This document shows, piece by piece, positions 7,860 to 39,974 of a stretch of DNA of 64,000 bases; the stretch's first letter is position 1; each line of letters begins with the position of its first letter. The notes beneath the pieces are model-generated. The model was not told the origin of the DNA. It saw nothing but the letters and a program-made list of their open reading frames with translations, and did not search any database. This DNA comes from Sminthopsis crassicaudata (Eukaryota): the NCBI RefSeq assembly GCF_048593235.1, contig NC_133620.1, positions 37,078,852-37,142,851 on the forward strand, written 5' to 3'. The position numbers were made by a program, and so were the translations under genes.

Positions 7860-8070
7860 TGGACATGAATGAAAATGACTCAACAAAAAAGGGATATTAG
7901 GTGTCCACATTAAATCTAACTGCAATGTAGGCAATACTTGGTAGGAACTTTAGAGGTACTGGTATGCATCAGGTTGAACAAGTTGAAGTAAATCAGTATA
8001 GGTCAGAAATAGAGAGGGTAAAAGCTTCCATAGATTCTGTACTCTCAGCTAGGGGAGATTTCATTCAGCC
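7860..8070 (-). repeat. Inverted copy of 9677-9881 flanked by 15-bp direct repeat ctattaaataataat
   Basis: 7859-8060 is the reverse complement of 9677-9881 with 6 substitutions and one 3-bp indel (hand alignment). ctattaaataataat occurs at 7845-7859 and 8071-8085. Confidence 0.9.
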
Positions 8071-8235: not shown

Positions 8236-9851
8236 GTTAACATTTATATATAACATGCGATGTGATTTTATGAGTATTTATCTCATTTGATTCCCCCCAA
8301 CAGCCCTGCAGTGCTATTATTTATCTCCATTTTACAAACGAGCACACTGAGGCAAAGAGAGATTAAGTGGCATATTGAGGGGCACACAGATAGTATCTGA
8401 GACCAGATTTGAACTCAAGTATTCCCGAATCCAGACTGAGCATTCTATTCATGATTCACCTACTTTGCCCCAAGTCACTTAATCCATCTTAGGCTGTTTT
8501 TTCATCTGTAAAATGAACTTAGACTGGACTACCTCTAAGGTCCCTTCCATCTCTGAAGCTATGCTTCTGTGATGCTGAGTATAATTATCCTCATTTTGTA
8601 TATGGGCTCAGAAAATTGAAGTGACTTACCCAGCACTTACCAAGATGGTTAGAGAGCTTTGAAGCCAGGAGTTTTAGTCAGATATTCCAAGAGATATTCA
8701 ATTCAATAAACACTTACTATATGCTATGGAACTCTAAGTTCTAGAGGGAGATGTGAAAATTTGAATGGTTCCTGACCTCAAAAATGTTCTATTTCCAGGA
8801 TATGGACAGATAAACAGACACAAAGGTTTTGGGGGATTTTTTTGGTCCAGATTCATGAATTCCTACTACAAATAATCATCAGCAACATTTCTGAAACTCA
8901 GCTTTCTAAGGGGTACGATTGTCAGAAAAGTTCAATGATTTACCAAAGAGATGATAGTCAGCATGGATCAAGAGTTGAACTTGAGGCAGAATTTTTTGGC
9001 AAGCCAAAAAGGTAGCACCCTACCCACTCTATCACGCTGTCATTGAATACAAAAAAATATAGAATATTGACAAGGTAATTTGGGGTAGTAGTATCAACAA
9101 CTAGGGGGAATAAGAAAAGTCTCCCACAGAAAGCTTGTAGGAGATGACTCCTGAGTTGTACTTTTAAAGATTCTGCATGTTGGAGGTGAAGAGGGAGGGC
9201 ATTCCAGACCTGGAAGGAGTGAGCACCTGAACAAGAACAAGTATACAAGGTACAGGAAGTTGGCCAGTCTTGTTGGAGCTGAAAATATAAAAGAGAGATT
9301 GATGTGAAATAAGTTTAAAAAGACAACCTTCCAATCTAAAAAGGACTAGAGTCCAAAGGATCATAGGTTGGAAAGGAATTTGAAAGTCATTTAGTTCAAC
9401 TCCCTTCATTTTATAAATAAGAAAATGGAAACCCATCCAAAGTCAAACAGGCTGGATTCAAACCNNNNNNNNNNNNNNNNNNNNNNNNNNNNNNNNNNNN
9501 NNNNNNNNNNNNNNNNNNNNNNNNNNNNNNNNNNNNNNNNNNNNNNNNNNNNNNNNNNNNNNNNNNNNNNNNNNNNNNNNNNNNNNNNNNNNNNNNNNNN
9601 NNNNNNNNNNNNNNNNNNNNNNNNNNNNNNNNNNNNNNNNNNNNNNNTTTCTCCTCTTTCCTCCCTCTCTCCAACCAATCTCTCCTAGCTGAGAGTACAG
9701 AATCTATGGAAGCTTTTACCCTCTCTATTTCTGACCTATACTGGTTTACCTCAACTTGTTCAACCTGATGCATACCAGTACCTCTAAAGTCCCTACCAAG
9801 TATTCCCTACATTGCAGTTAGATTTAATGTGGACACCTAATATCCCTTTTT

Positions 9852-10005
9852 TGTTATTGAGTCATTTTCATTCATGTCTAACTCTCCAAGAAACTATTTG
9901 GCATTTTCTTGGCAAAGTTACTGAAGTCATTTTCCATTTCCTTCTCTGGCTTATTTTACAGATGAGGAAACTGAGGCAAAGAGGGTTAAGGTACTTTTCC
10001 AAAGT
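9852..10005 (-). mobile_element. MAR1-like SINE
   Basis: ttgttattgagtcattttcattcatgtctaactc...ttcttggcaaag...ttccatttccttctc...ttttacagatgaggaaactgaggcaaa. Confidence 0.75.
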
Positions 10006-31293: not shown

Positions 31294-33528
31294 CAAGATT
31301 AGAATTCTCTATGAGATTAAGACAGGCTACTGTCCAGAGGGGTGAGAAAAGCCTGCTTAGTTTTTAATTTTGAATGCAAAAAACAGTGTTTTGGGAAGGC
31401 TTTCCCTTCATAAGTATAAGAACTCAGGAAAAACTTCCTAAAAAATGAAAACTGTCCCAAAGAGTCCCAAACTGCTTCATAAAGTGGTGACTTTTTCAAT
31501 CTCAGAAATTCCTCCCAATTAGAGGCTGCATCATTCTCAAAGTGTGTGACAATGGGGATCCCTTTCACTCTACTTTGGAGGAGTTGGCTGAAAAAGTCCC
31601 TTCCAAGTTTCACGGTCTGTGATTTCAGCAATGGTTTTCTCTTCCTTCATGCCAGAGGCTGACCAGGATGGATTCTTTCCTCATTTAAATAACATCATAG
31701 GAAAATGCATCTCTAAAAATTTCAGAACTCCCTGAAACTCCTCTGGGAATTTGCGACCTGAAAAGAAGAAAAGGGGGAGGATTAAGGTAAAAGCTTTTTT
31801 CTCTTTAAAAAAAAGAGTCTTGATTTTTAATCTGTGAAGCCCAATTGTGAACACTCTAGTTAGTTGTCTTCTCTCTTAACTAGGCTCTTAGTACCTTAGA
31901 TTCAGGGACTACTCTATCCTATGTAGTAATAAAAGAAAAAGTCTGGTATTCATTCAACAAATATTAAGCACTCAGTAAAAAGCAATGGATCAGTTGCTGT
32001 GATGAGAACAGAGATTTTGGGCATCTCAGTGGCACTCCAAAAGCTTCAAGTTTGAAGACACTCACAACTTGTATAACTCTGGGCAAGTTATTTATAATTA
32101 ATTTATAAATAATAAATAAATAAATGTTCTGTGACTCAATTTCCTCATCTGTAAAATGGGAATAATGATAACACTTATTTTCCAAGGCAGCTGTGAGGAT
32201 CAAATGAGTTAGCATTTGTTATGTGCTTTGTAAACCTTAAAGCATATATAAATATGCTTTATATATATAGCAACTATGTAAATGGCAACTATTAACATTA
32301 TTTTGAAAAGAATTGGCCCTGCCTTCATGGGGCTTTCAGGTTAGTAAGGAGATAAAACGAAAACACTTGTAGCACCCTCACTCCACCTTTCCCTTCCCGT
32401 AGTGATGATTTAAAAAATACTAGAAGAAAAGGGAGTAGTCAGGGAAAATAAAGGAGAACTAGAGCTACAGACAGGAAAAATAATGTTTTGTTTTGTTTCT
32501 CCCCAAGGACAAAAAAAAGGAGAGGTGGCAATGGACTAAGGAAGATTTTCTCTACAGAGTTGGCCATTCTTTGACTACACTTTGCTGGACTTCTCATGAT
32601 ATATCATCCTCAGGGAGTATTGAGAACCCTATGCAGCCCAACCAATGGGCAACTGTGCTAGGAGATAAGAGAAAACCATGATCAGAGAGGCTCCTGACAG
32701 TGTCAAAGCTGGGAAAGTAACAGCCAGAGCACCACAACCCATCACCCTCTCCAGTCCATCTGCAGTTCTCAGACTAACTTGATTGTGACCACTTGGGAGA
32801 TCATGACTAGGAAAGCCCAGGGGGCACTTAGGCCAAGAATGGCAAAAGACACAATTACAAAGAAAACCAATTAGACTGATGGGTGTTTATTAAAATATAT
32901 ATAGAGAGATACATATATCTTAATATATTTATTTTGCACTAGAGTCTATTGCTAATGGTCACCAAAGATAATAACTGACATAGCACTTTAAGGCTTTGCA
33001 ACATGCTTAATGTATATTATAGAATTTGGTACAGACAACAAACTTGTGATGGAAAATACTTTGGAGACATTTGCAAAAATCTAATATTTGGGATATGTGT
33101 AATCCCCAGTGGGGGAAGTTAAGTTTACACATTGGAATTGTATCTGGGAACTCAGGTTTGGAGCAGGACTATAGAATGGTCAGACAGAGTGAGCCTGGAA
33201 GCAACTACAGATGAACAATACCAATAGTTGTTTTATTACATTCTGATTATATTCCTTTTATTTCTTTGTTTATAAGTAAAGACTATGTACAACTGAGCCA
33301 TGCTCATGGTAGACTCCATCGTACCAGGCTCACACCAACTGGGAGGAAAGCAGAGTTTCTGCAGTGAGTGGGGGCTCTAGCCAAGATTCACATTAGATAC
33401 ATCACACTGAGAACATTCTTCCTATTCTTCTAACAAGGCTGCCACTCACCAAAAGGCAATGTTGAGTGATATAGGTTTCCATGCCCTGAGAACTCCAGAG
33501 ACAACAGTGTTCTCCTCAAACATTCCCT

Positions 33529-35072
33529 TGTGATCAGTGGAATAGTTTAGGTTCACAGGGCAAGATAGTGAATAAAAATAGCAATCTAGTGTTTGACAAA
33601 CGCAAGCATCCCAACTTTTGGGATAAGAATTCATTATTTGACAAAAACTGCTGGGAAAATTGGAAATTAGTATGGCAAAAACTAGTCATGGACCCATATT
33701 TAACACCACATACTAAGATAAGATCAAAATGGGTCCATGATTTACACATAAAGAACGAGATCATAAATAAATTAGAGGAACATAGGATAGTTTACCTCTC
33801 AGACTTGTGGAGGAGGAAAGAATTTGTGACCAAAGGAGAACTAGAGATCATTATTGATCACAAAATAGAAAATTTTGATTACATCAAATTAAAAAACTTT
33901 TGTACAAACAAAACTAATGCAAACAACATTAGAAGGGAAGTAACAAATTGGGAAAACATTTTTACAGTTAAAGGTTCTGATAAAGACCTCATTTCCAAAA
34001 TATACAGAGAATTGACTCTAATTTATAAGAAATCAAGCCATTCTCCAATTGATAAATGGTCAAAGGATATGAACAATTTTCAGATAATGAAATTGAAACT
34101 ATTTCCACTCATATGAAAGAGAGTTCCAAATCTCTACTGATCAGAGAAATGCACATTAAGACAACTCTGAGATACCACTAGACACCTATCAGATTGGCTA
34201 AGATGACAGGGAAAGATAATGATGAATGTTGGAGGGGATGTGGGAAAACTGGGACACTGATGCATTATTGGTGGAGTTGTGAAAGAATCCAACAATTCTG
34301 GAGAGCAATCTGGAATTATGCCCAAAAAGTTATCAAACTGTGCATACTCTTTGATCCAGCAGTGCTACTACTGGGCTTATATCCCAAGGAAATACTAAAG
34401 AAGGGAAAGGGACCTGTATGTGCCAAAATGTTTGTGGCAGCCCTTTTTGTAGTGGCTAAAAACTGGAAAATGAACAGATACCCATCAATTGGAGAATGGT
34501 TGAGTAAATTATGGTATATGAATGTTATGGAATATTATTGTTCTGTAAGAAATGACCAACAGGATGAATGCAGTGAGGCTTGGAGAGACTTACATCACCT
34601 GAAGCTAAGTGAAACGAGCAGAACTAGGAGATCATTATACACTTCAACAATGACACTATATGAGGATGTATTCTGGTGGAAGCCGATATCTTCAACATAG
34701 AGAAGAGCTAATCCAATTCCAATTGATCAATGATGGACAGAATCAGCTACACCCAGAAAAGGAACACTGGGAAATGAGTGTAAACTGTTAGCATTTTTTG
34801 TTTTTCTCCTCAGATTATTTTTACCTTCCAAATACAATTCTTCCTTTGCAACAACAACAACAAAATTCAGTTCTGCATATATATATATTGTACCTAGGAT
34901 ATACTATAAGATATTTAATATGTATGGGAGTGCCTGCCATCTAGGGGATGGGGTGGAGGGAAGGAGGGGAAAAATTTGGAACAGAAGGGAGTACAAGGGA
35001 TAATGTTGTAAAAAATTACCTATGCATATGTACTGTCAAAAAAAGTATTATAATTATAAAATTAAAAAAAAA
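33529..35072 (+). mobile_element. 5'-truncated L1 (disabled ORF2 C-terminal part, 3'UTR, poly-A)
   Basis: ORF2 motifs DQWN…SNLVFDK…SLFDKNCWENW…YLTPHTKIRSKW and CWRGCGKTGTLMHYWW. Frameshift near 34075. Poly-A, and TSD aaacatt(t)ccct at 33518-33528 and 35073-35084. Confidence 0.95.
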
Positions 35073-37333
35073 AAACATTTCCCTATGTTGGTAAATGGCA
35101 GAAGTGCTAAGGTCAGCATAAGATTTCCTATCCTACCAAGTAACTGTATCAAGTAACTGGGAAGGGTGCCTCTTGGTGGGTTATCTACTGGGGACAAAGT
35201 TCTAGTTACCTGAGATAACTAAAAAAAGAAAAATTTAAGAAACCAAGAAGGATCCAGTCTCTCTCTACCCCAACTTTCTCATCTGTACAATAGGCATAAT
35301 AATATCTACCATGTTCCTCACATGGTGGTTGTGAGGACTAAATATTATAATGCCTGTAAAACAGGTTACAAGCCTTAAGTAACATATAAATGTCAATTAT
35401 TATTATATTTGGTGATCCTCAGCATTAGGCTCTAGTACAAGAGCAATCAAGATAAGATTGAAATGAAGGAGAGTCCTTAAAGATCCTCTGTACAGGGATT
35501 CTTAACCTGGGGGCCATGAACTTTGTGTATGTATGTATATACATGCACACATAGACATATGGAGAGATATTGACATATATAATATATAATATAATATAGA
35601 CATAAAACAAGACCTGATCCAATCTGATCCCTTCAAAATATTCAAGCTACAATATTTTACAGATGGGCCAGGGAGGCCCAGAGATATTAAGCAACTTGTT
35701 CATTCAGCTGGCAGATCATAGAGTTAAACTCAGAGGATCTGGGTTCAAATGCAAAATCAGTTAACTCTCCACTACATCACATTGCTTTAAATTGCTGGAA
35801 TAGAAGACAACACATGAGACATAGTGCGATAACCAAAGTGGGTGGGATTAGAAAAAGGAATGGAGCAAAGGAAAGGCAGGGATATATGAACAGATATGGA
35901 CACCCTTGATCCTAGGGACAGCATAGGTTATCTGCCATGAGAGGAACCATGAAAAGGATCTTCAACCATCAAGTGGAAAGTTAATTAAAAAGCAGTCAAA
36001 TTAGCATTGATTTTGTGGTAGCTGTGACCTTTTTATTATGATAATGATGATTCTCTCCTCTTCTCCTTCCTCTCTCCATTCTCATATCTCTAGCCCCTTC
36101 ACTACCCAAGTGCCCTTCAGTAGACAAACTATTCTAAAATAGCTTGCACATGGGCTTCCCAGAAGCCTGCTCTCCTTGCAGATGGCATAGTGGACCTCAG
36201 CTGATGCAAGCCGTTTTAACCTGGAGTATTTGCTGGTTCCGTTTTTTTTTTCTTTTTGTTCTGATGATTGTTAGCTCTTCTGGTTCATTGGTGATGGAAA
36301 TAAATCACATCTAACCTCTTTTGTACTAAAATTAACTGTCTCCTTGGACTGATTATCTTGCCCTTGGTCTCTCTGGAGTTGCACCCACAGGATCTCCAAC
36401 ATGCCTGGCAGCCTTAACAATTTGCTTAAGTCACATGTGAGGAGAGTCAAGTTAGTGTTCTCCCTCTGAGGTCAAGGGGGCAGTGGTGGCTGCAAGAAAA
36501 CCAACAGCCTCATTCTGATCAAAAGCTGAAAACAAAGGAGCCTCATGACTTTCATGATCTAGTCTTAAAAACACAGAAAGACAATGACTCCTTTTAGCTG
36601 TGTGACCTTTAACAAGTCCCTTAAATCTCTCTCTGCCTCAGTTTTTCCATCTCTAAAATGAGGAGAATAACAGCTTCCCAAAGTTGTTGTGAGGATAAAA
36701 TGACATAATTTTTGAAAAACATTTTGCAAACCTTATAGCTCTATATAAATGCTAGCTATCATTATTGTTTTCATTGTTACCATCGTGATGCTACTGTGGA
36801 GAGGTGATGGTGGCAATGATAGTGATTGCTGTTGTTATTTCCAGACGAGGAGCAGAAAGTGTATTTATAGTCAAATAAATCTGAATTCATATTTAGTTTC
36901 CAATAACATCTATCTATAACCATCGCGAAGAAACCATTTCATATCTCTGAGTCTCAGTTTCCTTTTCTGTAAAATGTAGTATTTATACCTATCTCACAGG
37001 ACTGTCACATAGATCAAGTGAGATAATATGTGAAAAATGCTTTTGCAAACCTTGGAGCCCAATATAACAATCAGCTGCCAGTATTATTACTGCTATTAGA
37101 CTTGCCAGGCTGTACATATGATAAGGACTAGATGGGGGGGAAGAGTAGGGCATCAGTTCCATTTGAATGTGCCTGGCTATATTTATTGTAAAGAAGTCAT
37201 AGCTTCTTTACCTCTATTGATTCAACTTCTTCAAGATCTCATCTGAAGCCTTGGGTCTGGGGGTGGTGATTTTGTATAATGTTTGAGGAACTGAGAAGAA
37301 GCAGGTGAAAAGAGCTGTATTAAAAGACTTTTT

Positions 37334-37700
37334 GATGTATCGGTCAACTTGCCATCAAGAGGAAGATGTTAGGATTACTAAGTGAGAACTGAGGTTGCGT
37401 CTGGGGCTGAGGTTGAGTCGGCTGAGGACCAGGAATCTCTTATAGCTGAAATGGGGCAGATGCTGAGGTCCAGGGATTGAATATAGCTAACATCTGCCCC
37501 ATTTCAGCTATAAGAGATTCCTGGTCCTCAGCCGACTCAACCTCAGCCCCAGACGCAACCTCAGTTCTCACTTAGTAATCCTAACAGGAAGGGGTGGGGA
37601 GAAGGAGGGGAGAAGTTGGAACAAAACGTTTTGCAATTGTCAATGCTGGAAAATTACCTATGCATAAAATTTTTGTAAAAATTAATTTAATTAATTAATT
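37334..37700 (+). mobile_element. Very short 5'-truncated L1 3'UTR remnant, interrupted by the 220-bp palindromic element
   Basis: Removing 37367-37586 and one target copy rejoins …caacttgccatcaagaggaaggggtggggagaaggagggg…, matching the L1 3'UTRs at 34930 and 47750. TSD aaaaga(c/t)ttttt at 37322-37333 and 37701-37712, at a TT/AAAA site. Confidence 0.8.
37367..37586. repeat. Perfect 96-bp inverted repeat with 28-nt spacer, TG...CA termini
   Basis: 37367-37462 is the exact reverse complement of 37491-37586. It is flanked by ggaaga (37361-37366) and ggaagg (37587-37592). Confidence 0.95.
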
Positions 37701-39974
37701 AAAAGATTTTTTTAATAGCATTATTCTTCCACTCAGGACCTCACCATAACTCCAGATTCAAGCATATGCTTTTGGAGTGAAACAGTCAACATTAGAATCA
37801 ACATGACAATCCCTTTCTCAAGGAGCTTCCATGTTTCCCTATTGTTTCTCGACTAAAACCCCAAACTAACAAATTTAAAATCATTCAGTCTGGCTCCAAT
37901 TTATCTTTCCAGGATGAATATGCATTATCCCCAGGGTCTATTTAATGTTCCCACACATGACATCCAATCTCCTAATGCAGGCTTTTCACAGGCATCTGCC
38001 CCATGCTTTGAAGACTTTCCCTCCTTGCCTCTACTTATTAGAATCCTTAAGTATCTATAACTCAGCTCCAATGTTTTCTCCTATAAGAAATCTCTCCTAA
38101 GTCTCCCCATCCTTCCCATAGGGAAAATGACATCTGCCATTATCTGTCCCTGACACATCGGCCCCAACAAGGCCATGCTATATTTCCCTAAGATCCCACC
38201 TCATGCAGGCTAGGTTTGTTTTTATTGTGTTTTTTCCTAATAGGGTATGGAAATTGTCCTTGAGATTGGATTGGGTCAAGAAACGAGATTCAGACTGTTG
38301 ACATGGCTCCCTGGTCACCTAAGGGCATAAAAGAGGCCTGCCCATGTGAAATCACTGGGGCTCAGCGGACTTGGCAATTGCCCCAAGGCCATATGAGTCA
38401 TTGGGCTGACCAGGCCTGGAGATGAGAGGAACTCTCCAAGTACTGCATCCTTGTGGAGAATCCTTCCTATACTAAGAAAACCTCCTTTTGTTATTTGTTA
38501 GATATTCTGTAAGTGTCTTTTCATTCCAATTCTGAAACTTAAGAGTCATTCTGACCTGACTCAGGCCTGATCCATAAATCTCATCCTCCCAGCCTACATC
38601 CCCCTGGGCCAAATTATTTCTTAATTCATTCTGTACTTATACAACTTTGTACATGTCATATTCCCCACCCTCACCCTAGCAGAATATTTGCTTCTTGAGG
38701 GACAGGACTGCTCCATTTTTAAAATTTGTATCCTGGAAATGTCTTGTACATTATACAATATGCTTAATAAATGTTTATTAAATCAATGGGCAAGAAAAGA
38801 TACAAGTAGAGGGAAGAGATTAGGTTGGAGAACTTCTTTCTCTAAACACGATACCTCTAGACATCCCTTAAACTCAAATACTGATCTCAAGAGTCAGTTG
38901 GTACCTGTACATTTATGCATGTACTGACTGCAAAGCACTGCTCTTCTATTGAATTATCCCCTCTCTAAATCTCCATGAAACTAATTTGGTTCTCTTCCTA
39001 TCTTTAGTTGCTCCTTTTTTTCCTATTCTTTTTCTGTCTCTTCCTACTATAAACCATCTTCCACAGGATTGCCAAAGAGATATTCCTAAAGCATAGGTTT
39101 TACCATGTCACTCTACCGTGCAAGAAGTGGATCCCCATCACTTCTGTTTGACATCTAAGGTCTTGACAATCTAGATCTAAACTGTTTTTCCATGCATTGT
39201 GGTCCCATCAAACTTATCACCATGTGGTTCCTCATAAATTAATCCATTTCCTTTCACTGGGCTTCTATATAAACTATCCAATAGCTAGAAAACTCTCTCT
39301 CTTCTCTTGGACCTCTTAGAATCCCTGCTTTCTTGCAGCTACTGTCTCCTATATAAGGCCTTTCCTTTCCGCCAGCTACTAATGTTTCCATATAAAAATT
39401 ACTTTGTATTTATTTAAATAGCTTGTATACACTCATATAGTCAAAGATTGTTTCCCCAATAATGTTACCTTCTTGAAGGTAGGGACTGTTTGGTTGTTGT
39501 TGGGGTGTTTTTTGTCTTTTTATCCCCATTTCCTAGCACAGTACCTGCCACATGGTAGGCATTTAATTAATAATTTGGTTTGACTTATTGATTGACTCCT
39601 ACCTACTGATTATTACGTTCACTGAGTTTGAAGATTGTTTTTTTATCTTTGTATTTCAATCATCAGTGACTAACCCAGTAACCTGCATGTAAAACATATT
39701 TAATAAAGGCTTGTTGATTGATTAATATCTCCTAACTGGGTTCTCTGCTCAAATCCAAAAATTGAAGTCATCATCTTGTGGCACCTCTGTCTTACGGTCT
39801 TACAGGATTGTAGATTCAGAGATAATTGAAACCAGCCCCCTTTTAGATACCACATTCTCCCCATCCCCTTGTCTTCAGACCTCAAGGTCAGATTTGTTCC
39901 TCTCATTTCACTCACACTCAGTTTCCAGTTGGGCACAAAGTCCAGTTAGTCAGTCAGCAAGAACTTATTGTTGT

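What the first reader, a model, noticed from the sequence alone, without database searches (positions are those of the whole stretch)
37361..37592. 220-bp perfect fold-back element with TG...CA ends, inserted with a 5-6 bp TSD inside an L1 3'UTR
Seen: two 96-bp arms with no mismatches, separated by a 28-nt spacer. The termini are TGTTAGG...CCTAACA and the flanks are ggaaga and ggaagg. Excising the element restores a continuous L1 3'UTR, so it is a discrete insertion. The first 126 bp also end in CTAACA (37487-37492), and the fold-back point sits at an agatg microhomology (37364-37368 and 37458-37462). Known: TG...CA ends with a 4-6 bp TSD are the footprint of retroviral-type integrases (LTRs, Ginger transposons), and long perfect hairpins can feed Dicer. 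Inference: either a deleted solo LTR that underwent a template-switch fold-back, or an undescribed non-autonomous long-TIR element. The arms are identical while both nearby TSDs carry a mismatch, which suggests recent origin or arm-to-arm conversion.
Basis: partly seen in the sequence, partly recalled or inferred. Interest (0 to 1): 0.7.

Follow-up and report, generated by a model that had tools for sequence, protein, structure and literature searches.

The report
Retroviral misfire with two left ends
This 220-base mirror-image insert is a single dead scrap of a young endogenous retrovirus that carries the virus's left (U3) end at both termini, one of at least 60 such two-left-end inserts in this genome (some only 31 bases long), likely pasted in by the viral integrase from folded-back copying errors.

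Summary
The hairpin is real (96-bp perfect arms, 28-nt loop), but it is neither a MITE family nor a shrunken solo LTR. All 220 bases map without mismatch to a young class II (beta-like) ERV family with about 11,000 U3 starts. Each arm is the first 31 bases of U3 joined to inverted pieces of the leader and gag start. The inner joints are unique in the genome. It sits in an L1 3' tail, and one contig of another animal shows the empty site. The 'TSD mismatch' is a signature, not decay: the two bases before U3 in the provirus (GA) replace the inner two bases of a 6-bp duplication, seen at 8 loci. At least 64 inserts of 31 bp to 2 kb have U3 at both ends and such a duplication. A 74-bp form recurs 29 times; U5/U5 forms are far rarer (1 against 39). 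Likely route: plus-strand DNA folds back on its own start, integrase pairs two U3 ends, host repair closes the centre. No function is shown. The scan noted two-U3 inserts before in other genomes; my limited paper searches found no description.

The parts
37319..37333 (+). Left copy of the 15-bp duplication that flanks the 5'-truncated L1 tail (older host insertion)
   Evidence: direct repeat D2, 93% identical to 37698-37712
37334..37360 (+). Left part of the host L1-like 3' tail
   Evidence: aligns directly upstream of the target hexamer in paralogs; L1 label partly recalled
37361..37366 (+). Left target-site copy GGAAGA; its last two bases (GA, 37365-37366) are likely the unremoved viral bases that precede U3
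   Evidence: 24 of 24 paralogs have G, none A, at hexamer position 6; empty allele has one GGAAGG; purine tract before U3 ends in GA; same pattern at 7 other loci
37367..37397 (+). U3 bases 1-31 of the ERV LTR (left integrase attachment end)
   Evidence: exact 31-nt match to copy L101
37389..37427 (-). Early gag codons (copy positions 669-707), antisense; shares 9 bases (37389-37397) with U3, the recurrent switch point
   Evidence: exact match; this joint at 9 loci against 1595 native joints
37428..37462 (+). End of leader and gag start (copy positions 612-646, ATG at 37451), sense; unique joint at 37427/37428
   Evidence: exact match; joint found only in the window
37462..37525 (-). Copy positions 612-675, antisense; holds the 28-nt loop (37463-37490) and the inner part of the right arm
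   Evidence: 64-nt exact match to many family copies
37526..37564 (+). Early gag codons (copy positions 669-707), sense
   Evidence: exact match
37556..37586 (-). Inverted U3 bases 31-1 (right integrase attachment end, again U3)
   Evidence: exact match
37587..37592 (+). Right target-site copy GGAAGG (original target)
37593..37697 (+). Right part of the host L1-like 3' tail with A/T-rich end
   Evidence: 90-96% identical to 39 other places among 40 scored
37698..37712 (+). Right copy of the 15-bp duplication of the L1 tail

Best explanation
The element is a single, non-mobile scrap of a young class II (beta-like) ERV, with U3 attachment ends on both sides and a 6-bp target duplication, likely made when an aberrant plus-strand DNA folded back on its own start and the viral integrase inserted two U3 ends. 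SHOWN: the mosaic, the two U3 ends, the duplication with the viral GA on one side, uniqueness, an empty allele, and a class of at least 64 like inserts. INFERRED steps: (1) plus-strand synthesis passed the gag start, slipped back over the leader/gag hairpin (a 35-nt inverted copy), resumed, then annealed by 9 bases to its own U3 bases 23-31 and copied U3 back to its end, giving a panhandle with one double-stranded U3 end; (2) integrase paired this end with a second U3 end (a sister copy or another molecule) and cut the target 6 bp apart; (3) host repair joined one 5' end with its GA still attached, opened the loop, and closed the centre by copying over the 35-nt inverted repeat or annealing to the partner, which yields identical arms. 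It has no U5, primer site or purine tract, so it would not replicate; if transcribed it would form a 96-bp double strand matching the family's U3, leader and gag start, which is untested.
For: All 220 nt are covered by exact matches to single young copies; 11 of 63 sampled rows (one locus counted twice) hold all four pieces exactly. Family: Gag, protease, RT, RNase H and integrase domains; best PDB matches 7SR6 and 7USF/3JCA (recalled as HERV-K RT and MMTV integrase); 6-bp TSD perfect in 34 of 36 resolved copies of 43 examined. Class: 5 matches of 31-50 bp, 5 of 5 with perfect TSD; 49 of 59-119 bp; 37 of 181-241 bp. Perfect TSD in 30 of 54 short and 17 of 37 longer matches. GA in place of the inner two TSD bases: 6 of 37 longer (window included), 1 of 54 short, 1 of 36 normal copies. 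GA or its complement abuts an end in 20 of 24 short matches without TSD against 1 of 30 with TSD (p 6e-10). U5/U5 control: 1 locus against 39 U3/U3 matches of up to 84 bp (p 3e-5 after allowing for pattern sensitivity 25 of 40 against 38 of 39). Independent origins: the 8 other loci with the gag/U3 joint need 8 changes on a tree, one clade rejected at p-AU 0.011; the U3 position-15 variant agrees at both ends in 52 of 54 short matches. L170, L186 and L262 carry the folded-back end of the 74-bp form at BOTH termini with perfect TSD, as expected if two such molecules were paired. The joint of the 36-bp insert L136 also stands in contigs of run X1 at single-copy depth.
Against: No intermediate was observed; the route is read from end products. 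Both-end agreement of variants also fits two molecules from one parent, so it does not prove fold-back. Two of the three inner joints have 0-1 base of exact overlap, so host polymerase slips or later shrinkage of a longer palindrome fit the centre as well. 23 of 54 short and 14 of 37 longer matches have no adjacent duplication; some are parts of larger inserts (L145, L173, L188), others were not resolved. The tree is weakly supported, includes three long rows, and the family recombines. The empty allele rests on one contig of depth 2.7 in one of 4 runs laid. No read or contig spanning this element's own inner joints was seen. GA-type duplications are not significantly more common in two-U3 inserts than in normal copies (7 of 54 against 1 of 36, p 0.14).
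Confidence: 0.75

Rival explanations
1. Same origin, other route: two ordinary or unfinished cDNAs were integrated by their native U3 ends and host end-joining, with templated insertions or later shrinkage of a longer palindrome, made the centre; no fold-back in the particle.
For: Fits inserts with native U3 on both sides (L120, L195, L197, L260) and the 31-42-bp inserts whose centres are too tight for a hairpin loop. Inner joints with little overlap.
Against: Both arms of the window element carry the same two non-native joints, so one was copied from the other or from a sister. The same 74-bp length recurs 29 times in 19 sequence variants, 23 or more with the same joint, and the gag/U3 joint at 9 loci. 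U5/U5 inserts are rare.
Confidence: 0.15
2. A normal provirus or solo LTR inserted here and was later rearranged in the chromosome into a palindrome.
For: Short inverted repeats are known to seed fold-back palindromes at breaks (recalled); the leader/gag region holds an imperfect hairpin.
Against: Both duplication copies touch U3 ends exactly; a normal copy has U5 on the right, and none is left. At least 64 loci share the geometry. Zero divergence from living copies leaves little time.
Confidence: 0.04
3. A new non-autonomous long-TIR DNA element (MITE-like, Ginger-type) moving as a unit.
For: TG...CA termini, long TIRs, 6-bp duplication; a recurrent 74-bp form looks like a MITE family.
Against: Single copy. 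Every base is ERV sequence. The 74-bp forms carry the variants of different LTR lineages: 14 of 29 match a sampled LTR exactly over the first 58 bases. Retroviral integrase is not known to excise (established knowledge).
Confidence: 0.02
4. Assembly artefact (fold-back chimeric read).
For: Perfect arms; no read across the inner joints was seen.
Against: Clean duplication with a viral GA, empty allele lacking exactly 226 bases, asymmetric loop of native sequence, dozens of like inserts, one of them supported in read-derived contigs.
Confidence: 0.03
5. Auto-integration (inversion) product of a cDNA, later integrated.
For: Auto-integration makes inversions in MLV and avian retrovirus DNA (Shoemaker 1980; Lee and Coffin 1990; titles seen in the reference list of PMC12789967).
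Against: It would leave an LTR end joined to inner sequence; the three inner joints are not attachment ends.
Confidence: 0.01

Closest known systems
Class II (beta-like) env-less marsupial ERVs, probably MEBrv 3 (PMC11334065; sections 7 and 10 and passages read)
   Same: Parent family: gag, pro, pol domains and no env hit, identical LTR pairs (12 of 37 pairs at 100%), LTR 373-468 bp against 469 in the paper, very high copy number.
   Different: The insert itself has no U5, primer site, purine tract or gene. Longest sampled copies are 6.3-6.5 kb against 7.3 kb in the paper. No sequence comparison with the published clade was made. 'Inverted' does not occur in that paper's main text.
Aberrant reverse-transcription products: deletions with insertions and inversions by template switching (recalled, Pathak and Temin 1990; not read)
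   Same: Short inverted pieces copied from elsewhere in the element; L030, L035 and L039 are of this kind.
   Different: Here the slip rebuilds a second U3 attachment end, so the product is inserted with two left ends.
Two-ended (bimolecular) concerted integration of short U3 or U5 oligonucleotides in vitro (recalled); MMTV intasome (PMC9410886, search listing only)
   Same: Two short like ends joined to a target 6 bp apart.
   Different: Here fixed in a mammalian germ line and closed by repair; inserts down to 31 bp.
Mu killer of maize (PMC3440606, abstract read)
   Same: Partial inverted duplication with two copies of the same (left) terminus of the parent element; potential hairpin RNA against the parent.
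   Different: Mu killer derives from a DNA transposon, is about 4 kb as RNA, is transcribed from a flanking gene and is shown to silence; none of this is shown here.
MITEs and Ginger-type TG...CA DNA transposons (recalled)
   Same: Short, long TIRs, TG...CA, fixed-length duplication.
   Different: Not amplified as a unit; made anew from a retroelement each time.
Inverted tandems of LTR elements by double insertion (PMC5932611, passages read)
   Same: Inverted LTR-element junctions segregating in populations.
   Different: Those are two elements with a target copy in the junction; here one insert with no central target copy.

Membership tests
Insertion made by this ERV family's integrase | TG...CA attachment ends of the family at both termini | tested here: met
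   U3 1-31 exact on both sides
Insertion made by this ERV family's integrase | 6-bp target duplication | tested here: met
   family 34 of 36 perfect; here 5 of 6 with the viral GA inside, empty site one hexamer
Provirus or solo LTR | U3 at the left and U5 at the right end, direct orientation | tested here: not met
   no U5 or R sequence; right end is inverted U3
Non-autonomous LTR element (TRIM-like) | two direct LTRs, primer site and purine tract | tested here: not met
   none present
MITE / Ginger-type DNA element | many full-length copies with the same inner sequence | tested here: not met
   inner joint only in the window; no second full match
MITE / Ginger-type DNA element | autonomous partner with the same TIRs and a transposase; excision | not tested
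   termini are fully explained by the ERV LTR; no excision search made
Class II (beta-like) ERV, parent family | tRNA-Lys primer site, beta-like Pol, 6-bp TSD | tested here: met
   tRNA-Lys(CTT) copied at the primer site in L004; best PDB matches (identities of entries recalled); TSD
MEBrv 3 (PMC11334065) | RT sequence falls in the MEBrv 3 clade | not tested
   published sequences and supplements not seen; only gene order, LTR length and abundance agree
Mu-killer-type hairpin silencer | inverted duplication with two like termini of the parent | tested here: met
Mu-killer-type hairpin silencer | read-through transcript, siRNAs, silencing in trans | not testable with these tools
   needs small-RNA and genotype data

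The most novel reading that the evidence does not exclude
In this active marsupial ERV family roughly one insertion locus in ten is not a provirus but a pair of U3 ends. Snap-back plus-strand hairpins as short as 31-74 bases are true integrase substrates in the germ line, intasomes routinely assemble on ends of two different DNA molecules, and host repair closes the break. The family thus seeds MITE-like TIR elements and ready-made hairpins against itself, of which this leader/gag hairpin could be a Mu-killer-like silencer.
Probability: 0.3. Interest if true: 0.75.

Novelty: new variant of a known kind. Interest (0 to 1): 0.55.

Why it matters
The single insert is a dead by-product. The class is the interesting part: dozens of germ-line inserts whose geometry (31-50 bp, perfect 6-bp duplication, two U3 ends) is hard to make from one linear cDNA looped into one intasome. 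They are a natural record bearing on whether integrase pairs ends of separate molecules in vivo, where plus-strand synthesis stalls and snaps back, and how the 5' flap and the break are repaired; the retained GA marks the likely plus-strand start two bases before TG. For annotation, such inserts will be mistaken for MITEs or long-TIR elements, and TSD 'mismatches' next to U3 should not be used for dating. They also offer a one-step path from a retroelement to TIR-bounded DNA and to self-targeting hairpins.

Tried and rejected
Rfam at gathering threshold: 0 matches in the window. Second copies of the palindrome: none. No RNA holder listed for the region; this says nothing on expression. Contigs of runs X1, X5 and X7 neither span the element nor show the empty joint, and have holes over the left flank: no evidence either way. 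Joint of two LTRs fused at their primer sites, as in note e1-9002883: 0 matches with one narrow pattern, not a test of that note. Idea that the AAGA left of the TSD comes from the purine tract (8 of 10 bases alike): dropped because the X8 contig fits the flank up to 37359 with 2 differences in 158 bases. Single origin of the gag/U3 joint: rejected, and all four combinations of two flanking variants occur. Pfam on 13 L1-like peptides: no L1 family; one sub-cut-off chance hit. Sizes 120-180 bp and above 241 bp were not scanned; larger two-U3 inserts came up only as by-catch, so 64 is a lower bound. Papers: 10 searches listed nothing that describes two-U3 inserts of ERVs; I saw listings and abstract starts, passages of PMC11334065, PMC12789967 and PMC5932611, and the abstract of PMC3440606. 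Oh et al. 2008 is not held. Most subscription papers, Dfam and Repbase were not searchable, so 'not in print' is not shown.

Full report
OBSERVATION. The two arms (37367-37462, 37491-37586) are 96 nt, fully complementary, 28 nt apart; no shuffle of 200 folds as well.

WHAT IT IS MADE OF. A search of the genome gave one full-length match, the locus itself, among 40 scored of 441 candidates, and many exact 64-65-nt part matches. These lie at the 5' end of an ERV family: LTR, primer site, leader, gag start. Against single natural copies every base is covered by exact matches: U3 1-31 sense; gag 707-669 antisense; 612-646 sense with the gag ATG at 37451; 675-612 antisense; 669-707 sense; U3 31-1 antisense. 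There is no R or U5. The U3/gag joint overlaps by 9 bases; the other joints overlap by 0-1 base, though one falls at an imperfect hairpin native to the leader/gag region. The inner joint at 37427/37428 matches twice in the genome, both times in this element. So it is a single-copy mosaic, not a family.

PARENT FAMILY. Copies carry Gag p10/p24, zinc knuckle, protease, RT, RNase H and integrase domains; no env or dUTPase family was hit in the three frames sent. Best PDB matches are 7SR6 and 7USF/3JCA, which I recall as HERV-K RT and MMTV integrase. A tRNA-Lys is copied at the primer site in one copy. The U3 start occurs 10,979 times and the native gag stretch 1595 times. Of 43 copies examined, 37 gave an LTR pair (94-100% identical, 12 at 100%) and 36 gave both flanks: 34 perfect 6-bp duplications, one inner mismatch, one with GA next to U3; 7 stayed unresolved. 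The purine tract before U3 ends in GA. This fits MEBrv 3 of PMC11334065 (sections 7 and 10 read: env-less, identical LTRs, most ERVs of dasyurids), but I did not compare sequences and did not open its supplement.

THE SITE. The flanks are a short 5'-truncated repeat tail with its own 15-bp duplication, 90-96% like 39 other places scored. In all 24 paralogs aligned, position 6 of the target hexamer is G, never A. In run X8 (sample S4) one contig of depth 2.7 covers the unique left flank and joins 37359 to 37586, skipping 226 bases: an empty allele with one GGAAGG. So the insert is young and probably not fixed; the other three runs were uninformative. The L1 label for the host is recalled; Pfam did not confirm it.

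THE TSD 'MISMATCH'. The left copy reads GGAA-GA, the right GGAAGG. The same pattern (outer four bases duplicated, inner two replaced by the viral GA or its complement) is seen in 6 of 37 longer two-U3 matches including this one, 1 of 54 short ones and 1 of 36 normal copies. Among short matches without a TSD, 20 of 24 have GA or TC next to an end, against 1 of 30 with a TSD. I infer that the plus strand starts two bases before TG and that this flap is sometimes ligated instead of removed.

THE CLASS. Patterns for a U3 start facing an inverted U3 end gave 5 loci of 31-50 bp, 49 of 59-119 bp and 37 of 181-241 bp; about 2 facing pairs within 241 bp are expected by chance. Of the 54 short matches 30 have a perfect TSD and 1 a GA-type; of the 37 longer, 17 and 6; the remaining 23 and 14 abut purine tract, GA or other sequence, and some are parts of larger inserts. 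Ten larger inserts with perfect TSD came as by-catch (L031, L032, L033, L034, L120, L126, L145, L173, L188, L199). That makes at least 64 TSD-bounded two-U3 inserts; sizes 120-180 bp and most above 241 bp were not scanned. The window's arm is the second longest perfect arm of the 37 (96 against 100). In the first 100 U3 starts on C1, forming 68 loci, 6 are facing pairs (3 with perfect TSD) and 2 of 37 singles fetched (of 39) end in a short inverted U3 with TSD: 5-8 of 68, from one chromosome end with some duplicated loci. The matching U5/U5 pattern found 1 locus against 39 U3/U3 matches of up to 84 bp. The gag/U3 joint of the window element occurs at 8 other loci: three are LTR-leader-gag start-inverted U3 with perfect TSD, one is a 2-kb two-U3 insert, four are short or long inversions inside otherwise U3...U5-type copies. 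On a tree of 66 rows (five duplicate loci dropped) the 8 need 8 changes and one clade is rejected at p-AU 0.011; support is weak and three rows are long.

MECHANISM. Shown: two U3 ends, integrase-type duplication, unique mosaic, recurrent class, U3 bias. Inferred: a plus strand, which begins at U3, snaps back on its own start where a few bases match (U3 17-19 for the 74-bp form, U3 23-31 for the gag joint) and copies U3 to the end, making a hairpin or panhandle with one attachment end. Integrase needs two ends; for 31-74-bp inserts one duplex is too short to loop (established DNA stiffness), so two molecules or an open bubble are likely. L170, L186 and L262 show the folded-back end on both sides, as pairing of two hairpins predicts. 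After strand transfer the host opens the loops and joins the centre. For the window element both transferred ends are of the gag/U3 type and both carry an extra 35-nt inversion, so one arm was copied from the other, either from a sister strand or by fold-back over that 35-nt repeat during repair. I put 0.9 on 'integrase-inserted two-U3 by-product' and about 0.75 on this route; a version with plain U3 ends and host-made centre is the main rival.

FUNCTION. None shown. Transcribed, it would give a 96-bp duplex matching U3, leader and gag start of an active family, the layout of maize Mu killer (PMC3440606, abstract). I had no expression data and did not establish whether the site lies in a gene.

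NOVELTY. Template-switch errors, auto-integration and two-ended integration in vitro are known (partly recalled; passages of PMC12789967 read). Earlier notes of this scan report two-U3 inserts in other genomes and a primer-site-fused form in this one; they are unchecked, and my class-level reading was noted before I saw the seven. New here are the minimal 31-50-bp inserts, the 74-bp hot spot, the GA signature, the U5/U5 control and an empty allele. Verdict: new variant of a known kind; the single insert is inert as far as shown, the class is of real mechanistic interest; interest 0.55.

Noticed in passing
L134-L138 (G000 C2:539074788, C4:186404706, C4:221936309, C4:361543525, C4:452394630): Five inserts of only 31, 50, 36, 38 and 42 bp, made of two facing U3 stubs, each with a perfect 6-bp duplication.
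   Followed up: yes
29 loci, e.g. L152, L158, L162: A recurrent 74-bp form (mostly U3 1-58 plus inverted U3 16-1) in 19 sequence variants; 12 of 29 have a perfect TSD. It would pass for a MITE family.
   Followed up: partly
L079, L084, L095, L044; solo-type L203, L211, L216, L235, L237: The family has two primer-site-like sequences about 70 bp apart. These copies end just before the second one with a perfect TSD, so both sites appear to have been used, giving two LTR lengths. Lys1,2 and Lys3 labels are recalled.
   Followed up: partly
L004:1215-1291: A nearly whole tRNA-Lys(CTT) is copied in at the first primer site of one provirus, i.e. read-through of the primer tRNA.
   Followed up: partly
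An inner joint of the element falls inside this look-alike, but not at the place where integrase or RNase H would be expected to cut; unexplained.
   Followed up: partly
L033/L042 (C1:521.56 Mb), L120, L126, L145, L173, L188, L199: Larger two-U3 inserts (0.45-2.0 kb) with perfect TSD, some holding inverted pol pieces or non-ERV filler.
   Followed up: partly
L155, L175, L236, L249: Two-U3 inserts whose centres hold sequence that did not match the ruler copy (host DNA or other RNA captured?).
   Followed up: no
L205, L209, L212, L218, L220, L221, L223: Seven solo LTRs near one end of C1 share the same flanks, so they were multiplied inside a larger duplicated unit.
   Followed up: no
L173 and L179: Two different two-U3 inserts on different contigs sit at the same hexamer with like flanks, apparently the same site of a repeat.
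   Followed up: no
window 7862-8034 and 9684-9859: Another inverted pair of about 170 bp, 1.6 kb apart.
   Followed up: no
window 33490-34697 and 55755-56492: L1 ORF2-like fragments on the + strand (label recalled, no Pfam hit for the two tested).
   Followed up: no
window 58001-61000: Raised CpG content (observed/expected 0.31-0.53 against about 0.1), perhaps a promoter region.
   Followed up: no
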